Below, piece after piece: positions 1 through 45,000 of a stretch of DNA of 64,000 nucleotides. The position numbers were made by a program. The stretch spans positions 7,254,001-7,318,000 of the forward strand of contig NC_135255.1 of assembly GCF_964204865.1 (NCBI RefSeq), read 5' to 3'. The stretch is from Styela clava (taxonomy: Eukaryota). The stretch's first letter is position 1. The number at the start of each line of letters is the position of its first letter.

Positions 1-3000
1 TTAGTAAAGAAGGTAGGTTTCGATTGGTAATTCAAGGTTAAAAAATATTTTCCAGTTCTATTATCTGGTTGATCTGAAGATGAATATCTATCTATGCTCA
101 GTTATGGGTGTTTTTAACAAAATATCTCCTAAATTGATTGGTGGAGCGCATCCACAATGAAATCATTTCAAATCCGTTGTTCAAAAAATAGAGAAATGGT
201 TAGCATATTCGATCGGAAATGAATTATTTCGTAATATTTGGTTATGATCAAAATATTTGAAACTTTCAATGTTGAATAAGAAAATTTTTATATGGTAGTC
301 CTGTGACATATTGCTGGGATGATATGATATAAATGGTTATTAGGGGCGAAGTGGACTTTTTTGCTGTTGCTGTCGTTGTGGTGAATTAAGATTGCTATCT
401 TTCCAACTATTGAACAAATTTATCTGAAATTAACCCGATTTTTGAAGAAGTTGAACAACTTGAAGCTAACACCAAGTAGGCTTATCGTTAATCCGTTATT
501 CCGATGACCTGTAATCCACGGTTTCGAGAAGTGATCTGTCTCGATTTTTTGAAACTGTACAATCGGACATCAAGAAATTGGAAATTGAAAAGTCTGAACC
601 CGTTTCAGAATCATCTCCTTAGGATGCGCAATCCAGTTTTAAAAGTCCTGATTCGAAGAACGATTACACAATTCACACAACGATGACCACACTCTAAACT
701 AGGTACGGAAAATTAGCGGTCAAAGGTAAAGTACCGTAAAATATTAGATTCTGCAGTTGTGAGTCGAATCGTTTGGTATCTTATTTCACGTTGGCAATAG
801 ACGCTTGGATCATCATTGTCATAGGTCTTACATAGGACCTGGCGAACCTAGGAAAATGCGGTACCATACTTCTACTGGTAAGTTACGATGCTCCTCTGCG
901 TTGTCCAGGCTATGAATTTCGAGAAAAACGTGGGTGAAATATTTCGTTTTAGCCTCTGTGTCCATATATTTTGAGCATTGCTTTCTTGTGAGCTCATTTA
1001 ATGTGTTCGCAACAATTTCCCTGATCAAACTTAATTTAAACTTAATACGTATATTACAATTTCTAGTTTTCAACCTAACCTGTAATATACTTTAACAACT
1101 CAAATTATAATTAGACTTTATATAATTGCATAAAAATTATAAAAAAGTAAATGATCAATTGCATAATAAAAAAATAACACATAAATTACAATACATGAAT
1201 TGTAACATAAATAGATACAGGCATTGCATTATTTAAAAATAAAGTGCTGGAGAATTAAAAGTTTCATAAAAAAATTTATTGCATAGTTGATTGCTTGAAA
1301 TTTAGAGAAAATAAAATTCTAGCAATTTTTTTGACGTTGGAAGATTCCCTATCCGATGTGTCTTTTGCGTTGTAGGAACTGATTGAGTATTTTTTCACCT
1401 TTGTCGGAGAATGAGTCATAATTGATTTCGATCTTGAAAGAGACTAAAAATAAAATAAAAACTTTTAATTGGCGTAAATAATTTTTCACTTGTTAATTAT
1501 TTTTTCACTTTTTAGGAAATTAAATGTATAATAAATAATATTAATATTAGTATATTTTTAATTGAAATTTGACTAAGCTTCGCAGTAGCATCAATAAAAT
1601 ACAATATATATCGTACTTGCTTGCCTGGACAAAAACGCGTTATAAGAATAATATTATATATGCACATATCAATAAAATATAAACAGATGACAAACCTTCG
1701 TTCTTAGTAGTGATTGGATGGAACCACTTCGATTCAAGGACATGTCTTTTTTACCATTCAATTCGTTTTGAAAATCATATTTAAAAAATCTGCAAAAAAA
1801 TAGCAACGTTTATTGTGAGTTATAAACAACTCTTTGTTTCCGATAGCAATGCCGTCACAGCAAAAAGTTCTATAGAAATTTTGCATCTATCTAAAACATA
1901 GACCCTAACAATATAAAATAAGTAGTTTCTTAAAATAAATTGTGACATTTATGTAAAAGTGACCACCTATAAATAAAACTTTCTGTTTTATTTTGGAATA
2001 AGGTTATATATTTACCTATATAATTTTCCCGAATCTTTGAATTCTTCCGACAACCATTTGCCATTAACATCTTCTATAATACGTTGATCCATGAATTTCT
2101 GTAGCAGTTTTTTGGCCTGGGGATTAAATAAAAACATTTAAAACATTTTGAGAATGTTTGAAAACTAAACCTTTAAAAATAATTCGATTCCATTGAAGTG
2201 TAAACTCGCAATTTCTGTTCTAGTCTCCGTACCTGACATCTTGACACGTTCTCATAGTTTTCTATTTCCTTTAAAATAGAATGCATTGTGGTGACAGCTG
2301 ATGAACCGGTGAAACAATCTTCATAAATTTTAAGATTTTTTCGCCTCCGGCCGCAATACATTTGTGATTCAAACGAATTCACAATAACCTTCCATATCCT
2401 TGTTGCTTTAAAAGCTTTGTTTTCTGATTTTGTGTTTCCGATGAGACAATTGTTGTAGTCTAATTCTTCTCCATTTTGATTTTCCATAGTTTTTCAAGTT
2501 ATGCTGCTAATTAAGATTTATTCTTACTTAGCTATGCTAATGATGATAACTGACTTTCTAAACAAGTCATATATATTAATATATTAATTATAATCATCGA
2601 TGAAAGATAAATTTGTTATGATCATAATGGAACTTGATAATCACTTATGATAAAGAGATAAGGCGTTCATTGAACCATCGCCCTTCAATAATATGTTAAT
2701 TGGCATTGGATTTTTAACATCAAATACCTCGCCATAACTTAATCTTTACATTTCTTTAATTAACGTCTTTGCAAGAAAAATTCTATCGGATTATATTTAC
2801 TGGAATACTATAAGCTTTCAAATATTACGCCCCGTATTACACAGTTGAGTAAATGGCGATACCATAGCGTTTATCTACTATTAAAACAAGAAATCTACGA
2901 CCATATAATCCTAAGACTTAAGCGCATTCACATTTGGTTCGAAGAGCAAAACGAAGTATCATCAAATCATTTACAGTACACCTACCACATCGCTGAAATT

Positions 3001-42000: not shown

Positions 42001-45000
42001 ACTATAAAATTCGTTTTGATTTTGAAGTTTTGTATGATAACGTCATCAAAATCAGACATTCCGCACCGCGCGGTGGTCCAGCGATTGCATTATAGTCGGG
42101 AAATTTTCTGATAAGGTAGAATAACGCAGGTTACTGTAAATTATTTCAGACTACCTCCTTTTACTAGACTCTAGAATGAATTTTATCTTTTTCAAATCTG
42201 AAAAATGATAAGTGGCACTTTAATTGTCAATTACTTGAAAATTCAAAAATTTGTCGAGAGCCGCATAAAATGTTCTAGCGTGCCGCATACCAAATACTCT
42301 TAGAAGCTTGGTACCATCTGGCAACGGTGCTCTCATTTAAATTGATGTCTTGTTAGTCCCACGTTTGATATGGATAGGCACATTTCAGCAAATTTTCTCT
42401 CTAGGCATTCTGGATCATCACGAGATTTGGTAGGAATGTCACCTTCAGCTTCCTCGTATGTAAACATTCTTCTTTTCTCCGCTCTTTCTTCCAATCAAAT
42501 TATGCAATAGGCAAGCTTTATATTTTTGTCATATTCATGGCTATGCAGTGCTCCGATGACAATATCAAATTTACTACCAAATATTTTCCAGCGTTCAGCA
42601 ACATTTCCATCAAAAATCAGAGGATCTGGTCTGTTCAATGACAAATCAGTCATCTCCAAATTAATTTCTCACTGACGCAATTTTTTTGAATTCTCCAAGC
42701 AGCTTTAAATCAATCCCGATTCTGACACCATGTTTTTTTTTGTAGGTAAACAAACAACTGTTCATGATTCTTGAGTTAATTATGGATATGTACATAACCA
42801 ACTGTACAGGAGAAATGGAGTTCTTGTAAATTTTTGATGTATTTTTATTGTTGGTGTGTTTAAAAAACTATCCGCCTTTCTTTACCCTCTGACTTGTCAC
42901 AGCAGATTCATCTTCGATCAACACGTTGCTTTTTCCGAGATCATTACTAGTTCGAATATTTTTCCAAGTTTTAACTTAGCGAGCATACTATAGTGAGGTA
43001 TATAATACAATTAGATCAAGACTCTGCATCAAATTGGTATATTGCATTGTGAATACACGTCACAGAAATTACTGTTGACCATGAAAATTTTTTTACTTAA
43101 TTAAAGTGCAATATTTATTGGGAACATATGCAAAATCATTGACGAATGTTGCTGTTTGAAGATTACATAGAACTGACGTCCATTGTATCGATTAATTAGA
43201 TAGATAAGCTCTATACCAACAACAGAAATATAATGCATAATTTAGAATTACTCCTTCAATGAGTGCTGTACTTAATTATTATTATTCCAATTGTACATAT
43301 TGGACTATATCTTCTGATAAATTTTCGTTGAATTTCATTTCGCTGACGTTGTTTTGCTCATTAGTAATATTACCTGCGTATGACATGAGCCGTTTAGTGG
43401 AGCAGGCGATATATAAATGCGCTTGCATTGCACACTCGGGATAGAGATCAAAACATTTTGAGGGAATCACATCTTATTCTTGTTTTTGAAACTGAAACTT
43501 TCACAAACTTGGTAAAACAAAAGTTAAAAGGTTTTTCAACTTACCTCATCGTTCATTTGACCATGGAAACATATACTGAAGATCAAGATTACAAAAACTG
43601 CTCAGTCAAAAACAGAAAATCAGAAAACAAAGCTTTCAAAGCTACAAAAACCTGGAACACATTTGTCCAATCGTTTGAGTCACAAATATGTTGCTGCCGC
43701 AATCGGAAAAATCTTAAGATTTACAAAGAATGCTTCACCGGTTCATCAGCTGTTACCACAATGCATAAAATCCTGAAAAAAATGGAAAACTATGAGAATG
43801 TGTCAAGATCTCAGGTAAGAAGTGTTTTTGTACAACATGTGTTGTAGTCAATTTTAGTGTAAATTGACTTCATCTAAAATGCATGAGGTGTTTGAAATAT
43901 TGCAATTTTAACTAAAGTATTTTTATATTTCATTCCTAAAGAGTATAAAACTGCTACAGAAATTCGTGGACCAACATATTATAGAAGATATCAATGGCAA
44001 ATGGTTATCGGAAGAATTCAAAGATTCGGGAAAATTATATAGGTATAATTAGTCCATATTTTTTTATTCCGAAAGTCATATATTAAAGTATGAATTTTGC
44101 ATTGTGATATATAATTCCCTTCATCTTTGATTAAATTGCTCACGATATACAGTGATACTTCTGTAATCGAAATACTCAACACTCGAACGATTCGGTAGTT
44201 GACCAAAAAATTAGAGTCAAAAATTACCACAGTTTCCACTTTTTTTATGACAAAAAAGTTTCGGTACTCGCACAAATCGTAGTCGAACACCATTCCCGAA
44301 CTAATTATGTTCGACTACAGAGGTATGACCCAGATGCTGATATATATTTTTTAAATATATTGTTGTTTTCTTATAGATTGGCCAAATGCAAATGTTTGAA
44401 TGCCAGCAAGAAATGGATCGAAAATCGATCACAGAATCGAAATAATTCAATTCATGCATTAGTTGGAAGAAAAGGTGTGTAACCTACATGATGTATATAT
44501 ATTTAGTTGTCGCGATTAGTTTTAGTTGAAAATTCAAGGATAGAACAAAATGTTATTTGAGACATTTGGAATATTTGATATTTATAATAGTAACTGACAA
44601 ATCAGAACAGAATATCTCATTCAGCATAAAATAGTACTTTTTGTATGTTGCTGTTATTACGCCGATTAAAATGAGTTCTTTTCGTTTCTAGTTTCCGTCC
44701 AGATAGACGAAACTCAAGCACATTTTCGAAAAACTGCAAAAAGGTTTTCAACCTCTTCCTGTAGCATGATGGAATGGACGAATAAAAAGATTTTAAAAAT
44801 AATACCACGGGGCAAAAAACATTATCTGTGAACTCAAAGCAATCCGACGCAACAATTCTTTTATCATTTCCAGCAGAATGAAAAACTTAATTCATTTTTT
44901 CTTCTGATTTCACTTTCCTGCAAACATACTTTTTTATTATTATTTTTTTTTCATGATTGAATAATATGATTTTCCCATATATTTATTGATTGTTTGAATC

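What the first reader, a model, noticed from the sequence alone, without database searches (positions are those of the whole stretch)
1276..44445. Expanded family of DEP-only mini-genes derived from a DEPDC1-like gene
Seen: at least 13 copies in three subtypes (A x4, B x5, C x4) plus four decayed inverted B copies; about eight look intact. All keep the same intron positions across the DEP domain and stop after a short tail, which in A and B is S/K/R-rich with SP motifs. Established: DEPDC1/LET-99-type proteins continue into a RhoGAP-like domain and are normally low-copy. Inference: a lineage-specific family of truncated DEP microproteins, possibly decoys or dominant negatives in GPCR/G-protein, Wnt or spindle-positioning signalling.
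Basis: partly seen in the sequence, partly recalled or inferred. Interest (0 to 1): 0.72.

Follow-up and report, generated by a model that had tools for sequence, protein, structure and literature searches.

The report
Sea-squirt family of DEP-only mini-genes
A sea squirt (Styela clava) carries a tandem cluster of short genes that keep only the membrane-docking DEP domain of the cell-division regulator DEPDC1 plus a short basic tail, and sequence conservation suggests most of them still work as proteins.

Summary
The window is Styela clava (ascidian) DNA. It holds 13 DEP-only gene copies: A x4 on the minus strand, B x5 and C x4 on the plus strand. It also holds four decayed inverted B remnants and one small A fragment. 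Ten copies have open four-exon reading frames. Nine of those have canonical splice sites; A3 has lost one acceptor. Seven equal RefSeq XP proteins exactly.

The encoded proteins pass Pfam DEP, have no RhoGAP domain, and fold as a DEPDC1-type DEP domain followed by a disordered basic Ser/Thr-rich tail. The family is larger than the window: at least 19 annotated S. clava loci on four chromosomes. These form one clade (98/84 support) inside the DEPDC1 group, separate from the 681-aa full-length S. clava DEPDC1.

The DEP exons are under purifying selection (omega 0.19-0.29, P below 1e-5). The tails evolve almost neutrally but keep their frame. A basic-basic-aromatic-Ser/Thr motif occurs in 6 of 8 mini families and in 0 of 22 full-length proteins.

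The decoy or modulator function is inference only. No expression data could be checked. I found no paper describing the family.

The parts
1276..2487 (-). A1 gene, 205 aa. Exons 2233-2487, 2016-2116, 1696-1789, 1276-1443 (stop included).
   Evidence: Exact GT-AG threading of database protein P0003 (XP_039255225.2) onto the window. All four exon peptides are contained in P0003.
10735..11934 (-). A2 gene, 205 aa. Exons 11680-11934, 11466-11566, 11157-11250, 10735-10902.
   Evidence: Projected from A1 with no indels, AG/GT kept. Equals P0010 (XP_077969589.1) exon by exon.
16837..17961 (-). A3 copy. The reading frame is open in all four exons (17707-17961, 17493-17593, 17174-17267, 16837-17004), but the intron-2 acceptor is mutated from AG to AA.
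   Evidence: No database protein holds its exon peptides.
21683..22894 (-). A4 gene, 205 aa. Exons 22640-22894, 22423-22523, 22103-22196, 21683-21850.
   Evidence: intact with canonical sites. No matching database protein was retrieved.
4714..5755 (+). B1 gene, 210 aa. Exons 4714-4965, 5082-5182, 5362-5467, 5582-5755.
   Evidence: Read from the three-frame display and checked. Equals P0015 (XP_077969564.1).
8100..9082 (+). B2 pseudogene. Exon 1 is replaced by duplicated intergenic sequence, exon 2 has a stop, exon 3 has a 13-nt deletion and exon 4 is frameshifted.
14147..15186 (+). B3 gene, 210 aa. Exons 14147-14398, 14516-14616, 14793-14898, 15013-15186.
   Evidence: intact. No matching database protein was retrieved.
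19319..20408 (+). B4 pseudogene. Exon 1 is disrupted and frameshifted with stops. Exon 4 is frameshifted.
25114..26162 (+). B5 gene, 210 aa. Exons 25114-25365, 25484-25584, 25765-25870, 25989-26162.
   Evidence: Equals P0005 (XP_077969929.1).
31865..33345 (+). C1 gene. Exons 32000-32257, 32382-32482, 32813-32910, 33161-33345, giving 213 aa from the ATG at 32000. The RefSeq model starts at an upstream in-frame ATG at 31865 and gives 258 aa.
   Evidence: P0008, XP_039254285.2.
36286..37543 (+). C2 gene, 185 aa. Exons 36286-36543, 36668-36768, 37096-37193, 37443-37543.
   Evidence: Exact threading of P0001 (XP_077969607.1).
40582..40779 (+). C3, a truncated copy. Only the first 198 nt of exon 1 remain, cut at a repeat-unit junction.
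43563..44831 (+). C4 gene, 196 aa. Exons 43563-43814, 43942-44042, 44377-44474, 44692-44831.
   Evidence: Exact threading of P0002 (XP_077970194.1).
29800..30271 (-). Decayed inverted B remnant in C unit 1 (pieces of exons 1-3).
   Evidence: Exon-peptide tblastn.
34100..34583 (-). Decayed inverted B remnant in C unit 2.
38383..38866 (-). Decayed inverted B remnant in C unit 3.
41435..41827 (-). Decayed inverted B remnant in C unit 4.
18294..18332 (-). Stray fragment of A exon 1 (13 codons).
1..26575 (.). Tandem array of head-to-head A(-)/B(+) units, 86-96% identical to one another. The window's left edge lies inside a unit, so the array probably continues beyond it.
   Evidence: Self-blastn.
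29095..45018 (.). Tandem array of about 4.3-kb units, each an inverted B remnant (-) plus a C gene (+), 91-98% identical. Each unit is the inverted counterpart of the A/B pair.

Best explanation
The region is a tandemly amplified cluster of real, mostly functional protein-coding genes of the ascidian Styela clava. Each gene encodes a DEPDC1-type DEP domain of about 100 residues. This is followed by a 64-92 residue disordered, basic, Ser/Thr-rich tail and nothing else.

Shown:
- The genes keep introns inside the DEP domain, so they arose by DNA-level partial duplication of the 5' part of a DEPDC1-like gene, not by retrocopying.
- All S. clava mini proteins form one clade, which fits a single truncation event followed by diversification.
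- The ancestral unit in this window was a head-to-head pair (an A/C-type gene and a B-type gene). It was copied in inverted orientation, and each copy was then amplified by tandem duplication. In the C array the B partner had already decayed.
- The DEP exons are under purifying selection.
- The tails keep their reading frame and a short basic-basic-aromatic-Ser/Thr motif that full-length DEPDC1 proteins lack.

Inferred mechanism:
- The mini proteins dock through the DEP domain at the membrane or cortical sites used by full-length DEPDC1, but they carry no RhoGAP-like effector domain.
- They therefore tune, most simply by competition, DEPDC1-dependent processes such as division orientation and mitotic cortex remodelling.
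- Phosphorylation of the tail motif may switch them on or off.
For: Organism and gene models:
- Protein hits are named Styela clava, on a 24.3-Mb chromosome.
- 7 of 10 intact window copies equal RefSeq XP proteins exon for exon.

Domain content:
- Pfam DEP scores 37.9-58.8 bits, above the 32.7 cut-off, in 11 of 11 mini proteins, and none has RhoGAP.
- The 681-aa S. clava protein P0021 has DEP plus RhoGAP.
- No RhoGAP exon lies in the window.

Fold:
- The AlphaFold model of P0003 has pLDDT 85-97 over residues about 31-120, with helix, hairpin, two helices and strands.
- The tail scores pLDDT mostly below 55.
- The best PDB match is the human DEPDC1 DEP domain 2YSR, with target-normalised TM 0.82 and sequence E=1.7e-17.

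Single origin:
- All 18 mini rows form one clade with UFBoot 98 / SH-aLRT 84.
- That clade is recovered in 99% of 200 bootstrap trees and lies inside a 100/100 DEPDC1-type clade. The quick tree of 130 rows agrees.

Selection:
- Codon-model omega is 0.29 for exon 1 and 0.19 for exon 2. Omega=1 is rejected (2dlnL 31.95 and 21.55; P=1.6e-8 and 3.4e-6).
- Pairwise omega between subtypes is 0.14-0.30.
- Within subtypes the DEP exons have 38 nonsynonymous against 21 synonymous changes, a ratio of about 0.43, P=0.0025.
- There are 0 indel events in 1774 exon columns against 27 in 1562 intron columns among the ten intact copies, P=1e-9.
- 17 of 26 columns that are at least 90% conserved in 35 full-length DEP regions are kept in at least 8 of 10 mini families.

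Tail motif:
- [RK][RK][FYMW][ST] occurs in 6 of 8 mini families. The shuffled mean is 0.52 families, and 0 of 5000 shuffles reach 6.
- The five-residue form [RK][RK][FYMW][ST][ILVT] is found in 0 of 22 full-length proteins.

Array history: the C unit aligns to the A/B unit in reverse order and orientation.

Functional context, from passages read:
- Ciona Depdc1b is needed for oriented, asymmetric division (PMC12705688).
Against: - No expression, protein or localisation data could be seen. RefSeq XP models are predictions.
- 3 of the 10 open copies (A3, A4, B3) have no database protein, and A3 has a broken splice acceptor.
- 3 of 13 copies plus the four remnants are dead, so the array also decays.
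- Within subtypes the tails evolve at a ratio of about 0.95 (47 nonsynonymous against 14 synonymous changes, P=0.48). The C copies end differently (185, 196 and 213 aa) because of indels late in exon 4. Those columns were dropped from the indel count.
- The 'intact' set was chosen after looking, which inflates the indel contrast.
- In the B group, exons vary as much as introns (0.074 against 0.072).
- Gene conversion between tandem copies could mimic conservation.
- The tail motif was defined after seeing the data, so its shuffle test is optimistic.
- AATAAA/ATTAAA hexamers occur within 400 nt after the stop in only 2 of 10 copies, so the 3' ends are uncertain.
- Nothing tested here shows binding to any partner or competition with full-length DEPDC1.
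Confidence: 0.6

Rival explanations
1. The mini proteins are functional but have a new job unrelated to full-length DEPDC1. For example, they could be fast-evolving germline or embryo-specific adaptors whose activity lies mainly in the tail motif, with the DEP domain serving only as a membrane anchor.
For: - The tail motif is family-specific: 6 of 8 mini families against 0 of 22 full-length proteins.
- Mini branches are long (0.3-1.4 changes per column, against a median of 0.26), and the clade does not pair with the S. clava full-length gene.
- 9 of 26 strongly conserved full-length columns have changed in the mini families.
- The family has 8 or more divergent subfamilies.
Against: - The DEP core and many surface positions are kept.
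- The closest structure and sequences are still DEPDC1.
- No partner or expression pattern is known either way.
Confidence: 0.25
2. The copies are non-functional gene fragments, a pseudogene array produced by segmental duplication and decaying neutrally. The RefSeq models would then be prediction artefacts.
For: - 3 of 13 copies and 4 remnants are clearly dead, and A3 has lost an acceptor.
- The tail ratio is near 1 within subtypes.
- No expression evidence was seen.
- B exons vary as much as B introns.
Against: - Omega is 0.19-0.29 with neutrality rejected.
- The within-subtype DEP ratio is 0.43, P=0.0025.
- There are 0 exon indels against 27 intron indels.
- Splice sites are kept in 9 of 10 open copies.
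- Subtypes with saturated synonymous divergence (A against B, dS above 2) still encode the same fold.
- The tail motif is kept across families that are otherwise unalignable.
Confidence: 0.08
3. The DEP units are alternative 5' cassettes of one large transcription unit and splice on to shared RhoGAP exons elsewhere, so the proteins are not really truncated.
For: - The C copies all point the same way.
- Poly(A)-signal hexamers are rare just after the stops (2 of 10 copies).
- A full-length DEPDC1 gene lies somewhere on the same chromosome.
Against: - Every copy has its own in-frame stop in exon 4.
- A and B lie on opposite strands.
- No RhoGAP-like exon lies in the 19 kb downstream of C4 or anywhere in the window.
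- Seven RefSeq models end at these stops.
- The full-length protein's DEP domain is a separate branch in the tree.
Confidence: 0.03
4. A transposon captured a gene fragment and spread it, so copy number reflects element activity rather than host function.
For: - Family members lie on four chromosomes.
- Transposon-like ORFs sit beside and inside the arrays: a KDZ-type element at 53-58 kb and gag-like ORFs in each C unit.
Against: - The copies in the window lie in plain tandem segmental repeats of 4.3 kb (C array) and about 5-10 kb (A/B array). No terminal repeats were noticed, but I did not search for them.
- The signals of selection are the same as listed above.
- The gag-like ORFs lie between genes, not around them.
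Confidence: 0.04

Closest known systems
DEPDC1 family (vertebrate DEPDC1A/DEPDC1B, Ciona Depdc1b, C. elegans LET-99)
   Same: - The N-terminal DEP domain is of the same subtype. The best solved structure is human DEPDC1 DEP (2YSR).
- The mini proteins nest in the DEPDC1-type clade.
- B copies still begin the tail with the 'RFP...SP' pattern seen right after the DEP domain in full-length proteins.
   Different: - There is no RhoGAP-like domain.
- Proteins are 185-213 aa, against 681 aa for the S. clava full-length protein.
- There are many copies instead of one or two.
- A tail motif is present that full-length proteins lack.
- 9 of 26 strongly conserved DEP columns have changed.
microProteins (small single-domain relatives of multi-domain proteins that act by sequestration). 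I saw only the abstract starts of PMC4807768 and PMC9638782 in the listing.
   Same: They are single-domain, evolutionarily derived from a larger multi-domain protein, and encoded by separate genes.
   Different: - They are mostly a little larger (185-213 aa, my estimate about 21-24 kDa) than the 'less than 20 kDa' stated in the abstract of PMC9638782.
- No interaction or dominant-negative effect has been shown.
- The DEP domain is mainly a membrane or receptor docking module, not a dimerisation domain. Any competition would therefore be for a shared site rather than by direct sequestration of the parent.
Isolated DEP-domain constructs used experimentally (for example the DEP-only DEPDC1B construct in zebrafish; PMC4250264, passages read)
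   Same: A DEP domain without the GAP-like half. In that paper it could not replace the full protein, which fits a non-redundant, modulatory role.
   Different: Those are artificial constructs. Here the truncation is natural, old, multiplied and under selection, and it carries its own tail.

Membership tests
DEP domain (Pfam PF00610) | Score above Pfam's gathering cut-off (32.7 bits) | tested here: met
   Whole database proteins equal to A1, B5, C2 and C4 score 52.0, 39.6, 48.9 and 47.8 bits. All 11 of 11 mini proteins scanned pass. Single exons alone stay below the cut-off at 16.5-23.9 bits.
DEP domain (Pfam PF00610) | DEP fold: helical core with a beta-hairpin arm and short C-terminal strands | tested here: met
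   The model of P0003 has H27-42, E46-50/E53-60, H61-74, H83-95, E99-101 and E117-120, with pLDDT 85-97. 12 PDB matches reach E<=0.001 and all listed are DEP domains. The best is 2YSR.
DEPDC1 family (DEPDC1A/B, LET-99) | DEP domain of the DEPDC1 subtype at the N-terminus | tested here: met
DEPDC1 family (DEPDC1A/B, LET-99) | C-terminal RhoGAP-like (pseudo-GAP) domain | tested here: not met
   No RhoGAP hit at E<=0.01 in 11 of 11 mini proteins. It is present in S. clava P0021 (25.5 bits) and Ciona savignyi P0022 (29.3 bits). No such exon lies in the window.
microProtein class | Small, single-domain, related to a larger multi-domain protein | tested here: met
   The size of 185-213 aa is at or just above the usual limit.
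microProtein class | Acts by binding or sequestering the related protein or its partners | not testable with these tools
   No interaction data. I ran no complex prediction because no partner is known.
Processed (retro)copy | Intronless copy of the parent mRNA | tested here: not met
   Three GT-AG introns per copy, two of them inside the DEP domain.

The most novel reading that the evidence does not exclude
Styela clava has evolved a large family of natural DEP-only microprotein-type regulators of the DEPDC1/LET-99 pathway, at least 19 annotated loci plus unannotated copies. These would compete for the cortical docking sites of full-length DEPDC1 and be switched by a mitotic or basophilic kinase acting on the family-specific [RK][RK]-aromatic-[ST] tail motif. 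This would give the animal a tunable, multi-gene control of spindle orientation and asymmetric division. It would be one of the few animal cases of an expanded microprotein family with a defined target.
Probability: 0.15. Interest if true: 0.75.

Novelty: new variant of a known kind. Interest (0 to 1): 0.5.

Why it matters
DEPDC1-type proteins control spindle positioning, cytokinesis and mitotic de-adhesion. In the ascidian Ciona, Depdc1b is needed for the oriented asymmetric division that separates heart and pharyngeal muscle fates (PMC12705688, passages read).

A selected, multiplied family holding only the docking half of this protein would be a natural set of pathway modulators. It would also be a ready-made tool for asking what the DEPDC1 DEP domain binds, which is still poorly defined.

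The family also gives a clean example of how a partial gene duplicate survives. It shows one truncation, gain of a new tail motif, head-to-head pairing, inversion and tandem amplification.

If the genes turn out to be silent, the locus is an ordinary decaying segmental-duplication array.

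Tried and rejected
- **Word-based search for long relatives.** A search with the family alignment found none: 8000 candidates were scored and none reached E<=0.001. This was a sensitivity limit. The full HMMER scan then found 501 relatives at E<=0.001, including full-length DEPDC1 proteins.
- **Atlas look-alike search.** It returned only DEP clusters of short or fragmentary proteins and added nothing.
- **Pfam on neighbouring ORFs.** 1 of 12 gave a hit above its cut-off (the CxC4 cluster of KDZ transposases). 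One more had a sub-threshold hit that I took for chance, and 10 had none at E<=0.001.
- **Repeat at 3107-3631 and its copies.** I considered that it is a mobile element that killed B2 and B4. It occurs only inside this array and always in one orientation, so it is more simply part of the duplicated intergenic unit.
- **Tail derived wholly from the parent's linker.** Only the first residues of the B tail resemble the 'P..SP' start of full-length linkers. The tail motif is absent from 22 of 22 full-length proteins.
- **Complex prediction.** Not run, because no partner is known and the report does not claim a specific binding pair.
- **Collections not used.** Genome contigs holds bacteria and archaea only. 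The phage, plasmid and E. coli collections cannot hold ascidian DNA.
- **Literature.** 'Styela clava' with 'DEP domain' gave 0 papers. 'DEPDC1' with 'ascidian' gave 3 papers, 1 listed, on Ciona Depdc1b. 'DEP domain' with 'tunicate' and 'expansion' gave 5 papers, 4 listed, none on this family judging by title and abstract start.

Full report
**What the window is.** The window is AT-rich (about 31-37% G+C, no N). Protein searches with exon 1 of a C copy and with the returned proteins hit only proteins named Styela clava, on a chromosome of 24,297,679 bases. It is ascidian DNA, not human.

**Repeat structure.**
- Self-comparison shows two tandem arrays.
- Bases 1-26,575 hold units 86-96% identical to one another.
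- Bases 29,095-45,018 hold units of about 4.3 kb, 91-98% identical.
- The left edge of the window lies inside a unit, so the first array probably continues beyond it.

**How spliced models were handled.**
- I searched the window's spliced models exon by exon: Pfam on single exon ORFs, a protein search with exon 1 only, and tblastn with single exon peptides.
- I left out the step of joining exons into one sequence for a search, fold or print.
- Whole-protein analyses used database proteins that tools returned and that turned out to equal the models.
- Codon analyses were run per exon, and only counts were summed.

**Gene models.**
- Three returned RefSeq proteins thread onto the window with exact GT-AG four-exon models. 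P0003 is A1, P0001 is C2 and P0002 is C4.
- Projection onto the other copies gives the following.
  - All four A copies are open, with no indels. A3 has lost the intron-2 acceptor, CAG to CAA.
  - B1, B3 and B5 are intact. B2 and B4 are dead.
  - C1, C2 and C4 are intact. C3 is cut after 198 nt of exon 1.
- Exon-peptide tblastn also finds four inverted B remnants and a 13-codon A fragment.
- 7 of the 10 open copies (A1, A2, B1, B5, C1, C2, C4) match database RefSeq proteins exon for exon. A3, A4 and B3 match none (C4).
The number of intact copies is ten (nine with canonical splice sites), not about eight. The last gene ends at 44,831.

**Intron positions.**
- Intron 1 is phase 0 after 252-258 nt in A, B and C.
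- Intron 2 is phase 2 after a 101-nt exon in A, B and C.
- Both fall at the same alignment columns.
- Introns inside the domain exclude retrocopies.

**What the proteins are.**
- Single exons hit Pfam DEP below the cut-off. Exon 1 covers profile positions 2-33 and exon 2 covers 36-71.
- Whole proteins pass at 37.9-58.8 bits in 11 of 11 mini proteins, and none has RhoGAP.
- The 681-aa S. clava protein P0021 and the Ciona savignyi protein P0022 have DEP plus RhoGAP above the cut-offs. Ciona intestinalis P0024 is just below the RhoGAP cut-off, and Clavelina P0025 shows none at E<=0.01.
- No HSP from five full-length tunicate proteins starts beyond residue 130 anywhere in the window (0 of 117).
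- The AlphaFold model of P0003, built from a 28-row alignment, has a confident DEP fold. Block-mean pLDDT is 85-97 over residues 31-120, and the tail is unstructured.
- Foldseek and phmmer both rank the human DEPDC1 DEP domain 2YSR first.

**Size and origin of the family.**
- Cluster look-ups name at least 19 current S. clava loci of this short type. Sixteen lie on the window's chromosome, seven of them inside the window. One each lies on chromosomes of 32.7, 25.6 and 24.9 Mb.
- Subfamilies other than A, B and C are 125-302 aa long.
- The full HMMER scan found 501 relatives at E<=0.001. I examined the best 150.
- Quick tree: 130 DEP regions were used, after dropping 9 near-duplicate or older-version rows from the 139 proteins with a near-complete DEP region out of 173 held. 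The mini proteins form one clade with SH-aLRT 98.
- Careful tree: 63 rows chosen by me were used, namely one or a few per mini subfamily, the DEPDC1-type neighbours, and 8 rows of a second clade as outgroup.
  - All 18 mini rows form one clade with support 98/84.
  - The clade is recovered in 99% of 200 bootstrap trees and lies inside a 100/100 DEPDC1-type clade.
  - P0021 pairs with Ciona savignyi (100/93), not with the mini clade.
- The base of the DEPDC1 clade is unresolved, so the age of the truncation relative to tunicate divergence is open.
- Two unnamed proteins, P0036 and P0038, fall inside the mini clade as their own branch. I did not try to find where they come from.
- The outgroup clade (482-616 aa) was not named by any search.

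**History of this locus.** The C unit aligns to the A/B unit in reverse order and orientation. The B remnant matches B1, a short intergenic piece matches, and C2 exon 1, intron 1 and exon 2 match A1 at 75% identity. In the trees C is sister to A (92/86; 95). The ancestral unit was therefore a head-to-head pair. It was duplicated in inverted orientation, and each copy was then amplified in tandem.

**Selection.**
- Per-exon codon models over the ten open copies give omega 0.29 for exon 1 and 0.19 for exon 2. Omega=1 is rejected (2dlnL 31.95 and 21.55).
- Pairwise omega between subtypes is 0.14-0.30 in 6 of 8 pairs. In the other 2 pairs synonymous sites are saturated.
- Within subtypes, the nonsynonymous/synonymous ratios are as follows.

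| Subtype | DEP ratio | DEP P | Tail ratio |
|---|---|---|---|
| A | 0.36 | 0.025 | 1.00 |
| B | 0.41 | 0.034 | 0.74 |
| C | 0.64 | 0.31 | 2.16 |

- None of the tail ratios is significant.
- Pooled, the DEP exons have 38 nonsynonymous of 59 changes (P=0.0025) and the tails 47 of 61 (P=0.48).
- Indel events are 0 in 1774 exon columns against 27 in 1562 intron columns.
- Caveats:
  - The ten copies were chosen because they are open.
  - C exon 4 beyond its first 66 nt was left out, because C1, C2 and C4 differ there by indels and end at different stops.
  - B exons vary as much as B introns.
  - Gene conversion was not examined.

**The tail.**
- Tails are 16-30% Ser+Thr and 18-24% Lys+Arg, with net charge +3 to +22 in 15 of 16 proteins measured. 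The 125-aa P0075 is the exception.
- The motif [RK][RK][FYMW][ST] is present in 6 of 8 mini families. Examples are KKYS in A, RKYS in B and KRFS in C, in every open window copy. The shuffled mean is 0.52 families, and 0 of 5000 shuffles reach 6.
- The five-residue form with [ILVT] after the Ser/Thr is absent from 22 of 22 full-length proteins.
- I defined the motif after seeing the sequences.
- Its likeness to the R/K-R/K-x-S/T-hydrophobic preference of PKA-type and Aurora-type kinases is recalled knowledge, not a tool result.
- 17 of 26 columns that are at least 90% conserved in 35 full-length DEP regions are kept in at least 8 of 10 mini families.

**Function.**
- Nothing tested here shows what the proteins do.
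- From passages read, Ciona Depdc1b is required for the orientation and asymmetry of cardiopharyngeal progenitor divisions, and the authors liken it to LET-99 (PMC12705688).
[quoted passage not shown] The purified GAP domain is pulled down by the PTPRF tail (PMC4250264).
- A DEP-only protein therefore cannot simply replace the parent. Competition for, or occupation of, the DEP docking site is the simplest reading, and a new independent function is the main rival.
- I saw the LET-99 papers only as search listings and the microprotein papers only as abstract starts.

**Novelty.**
- The gene models exist in RefSeq under names such as 'DEP domain-containing protein 1A-like', '1B-like', '7-like' or 'uncharacterized'.
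- Three literature searches found no paper describing a DEP-only family in Styela or other tunicates. Papers outside the held library and supplements were not searched.
- I rate it a new variant of a known kind: a known domain and parent family in a truncated, multiplied, selected form with its own tail motif.

**Unnamed rows.** Some unnamed representatives from the HMMER scan sit among vertebrate DEPDC1 sequences, for example P0041 and its unnamed cluster. Their origin is unknown and could be any vertebrate, human included. They served only as tree rows, with one name look-up, and were not pursued.

Noticed in passing
window 53234-58026 (+): A run of long ORFs (250, 302, 670 and 319 aa). One matches Pfam CxC4, the cysteine cluster associated with KDZ transposases, at 37.4 bits. 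This is probably a KDZ-type transposon, largely open.
   Followed up: partly
window 27733-28398 (-): ORFs whose sequence looks to me like a hAT/TTF-zinc-finger transposase fragment (recalled resemblance; no Pfam hit at E<=0.001). They lie exactly between the A/B array and the C array, possibly at the inversion junction.
   Followed up: partly
window 48453-50874: Tandem units of about 800 bp, 89-90% identical. They contain a minisatellite whose translation repeats an 11-residue unit in all frames.
   Followed up: no
window 39189-39704 (-), with copies near 30607-30941, 34907-35426 and 42333-42668: ORFs that look gag-like to me (recalled resemblance; no Pfam hit for the one tested). They sit in each C unit between the B remnant and the C gene.
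   Followed up: partly
window 3107-3631, 6445-7000, 12495-13051, 18893-19189 and 23520-24044, with pieces at 8084-8293 and 19550-19609: A repeat of about 550 bp found only inside the A/B array and always in the same orientation. Pieces of it replace part of exon 1 in the dead copies B2 and B4.
   Followed up: partly
window 2488-4713, with the equivalent spacers in the other units and 30272-31999 in the C units: A and B (and the B remnant and C) are arranged head to head, 1.7-2.2 kb apart. This suggests a shared bidirectional promoter. I did not examine it.
   Followed up: no
proteins P0036 and P0038 (unnamed source): Two short DEP proteins of unknown origin form their own branch inside the mini clade (100/99). 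P0038 has a short basic tail after the DEP domain. The family may therefore exist in another organism.
   Followed up: partly
tunicate full-length proteins in the tree: Full-length tunicate DEPDC1 proteins fall into two separate groups: S. clava P0021 with Ciona savignyi, and Ciona intestinalis, Clavelina and Phallusia together (99/95). This hints at two paralogues in tunicates.
   Followed up: no
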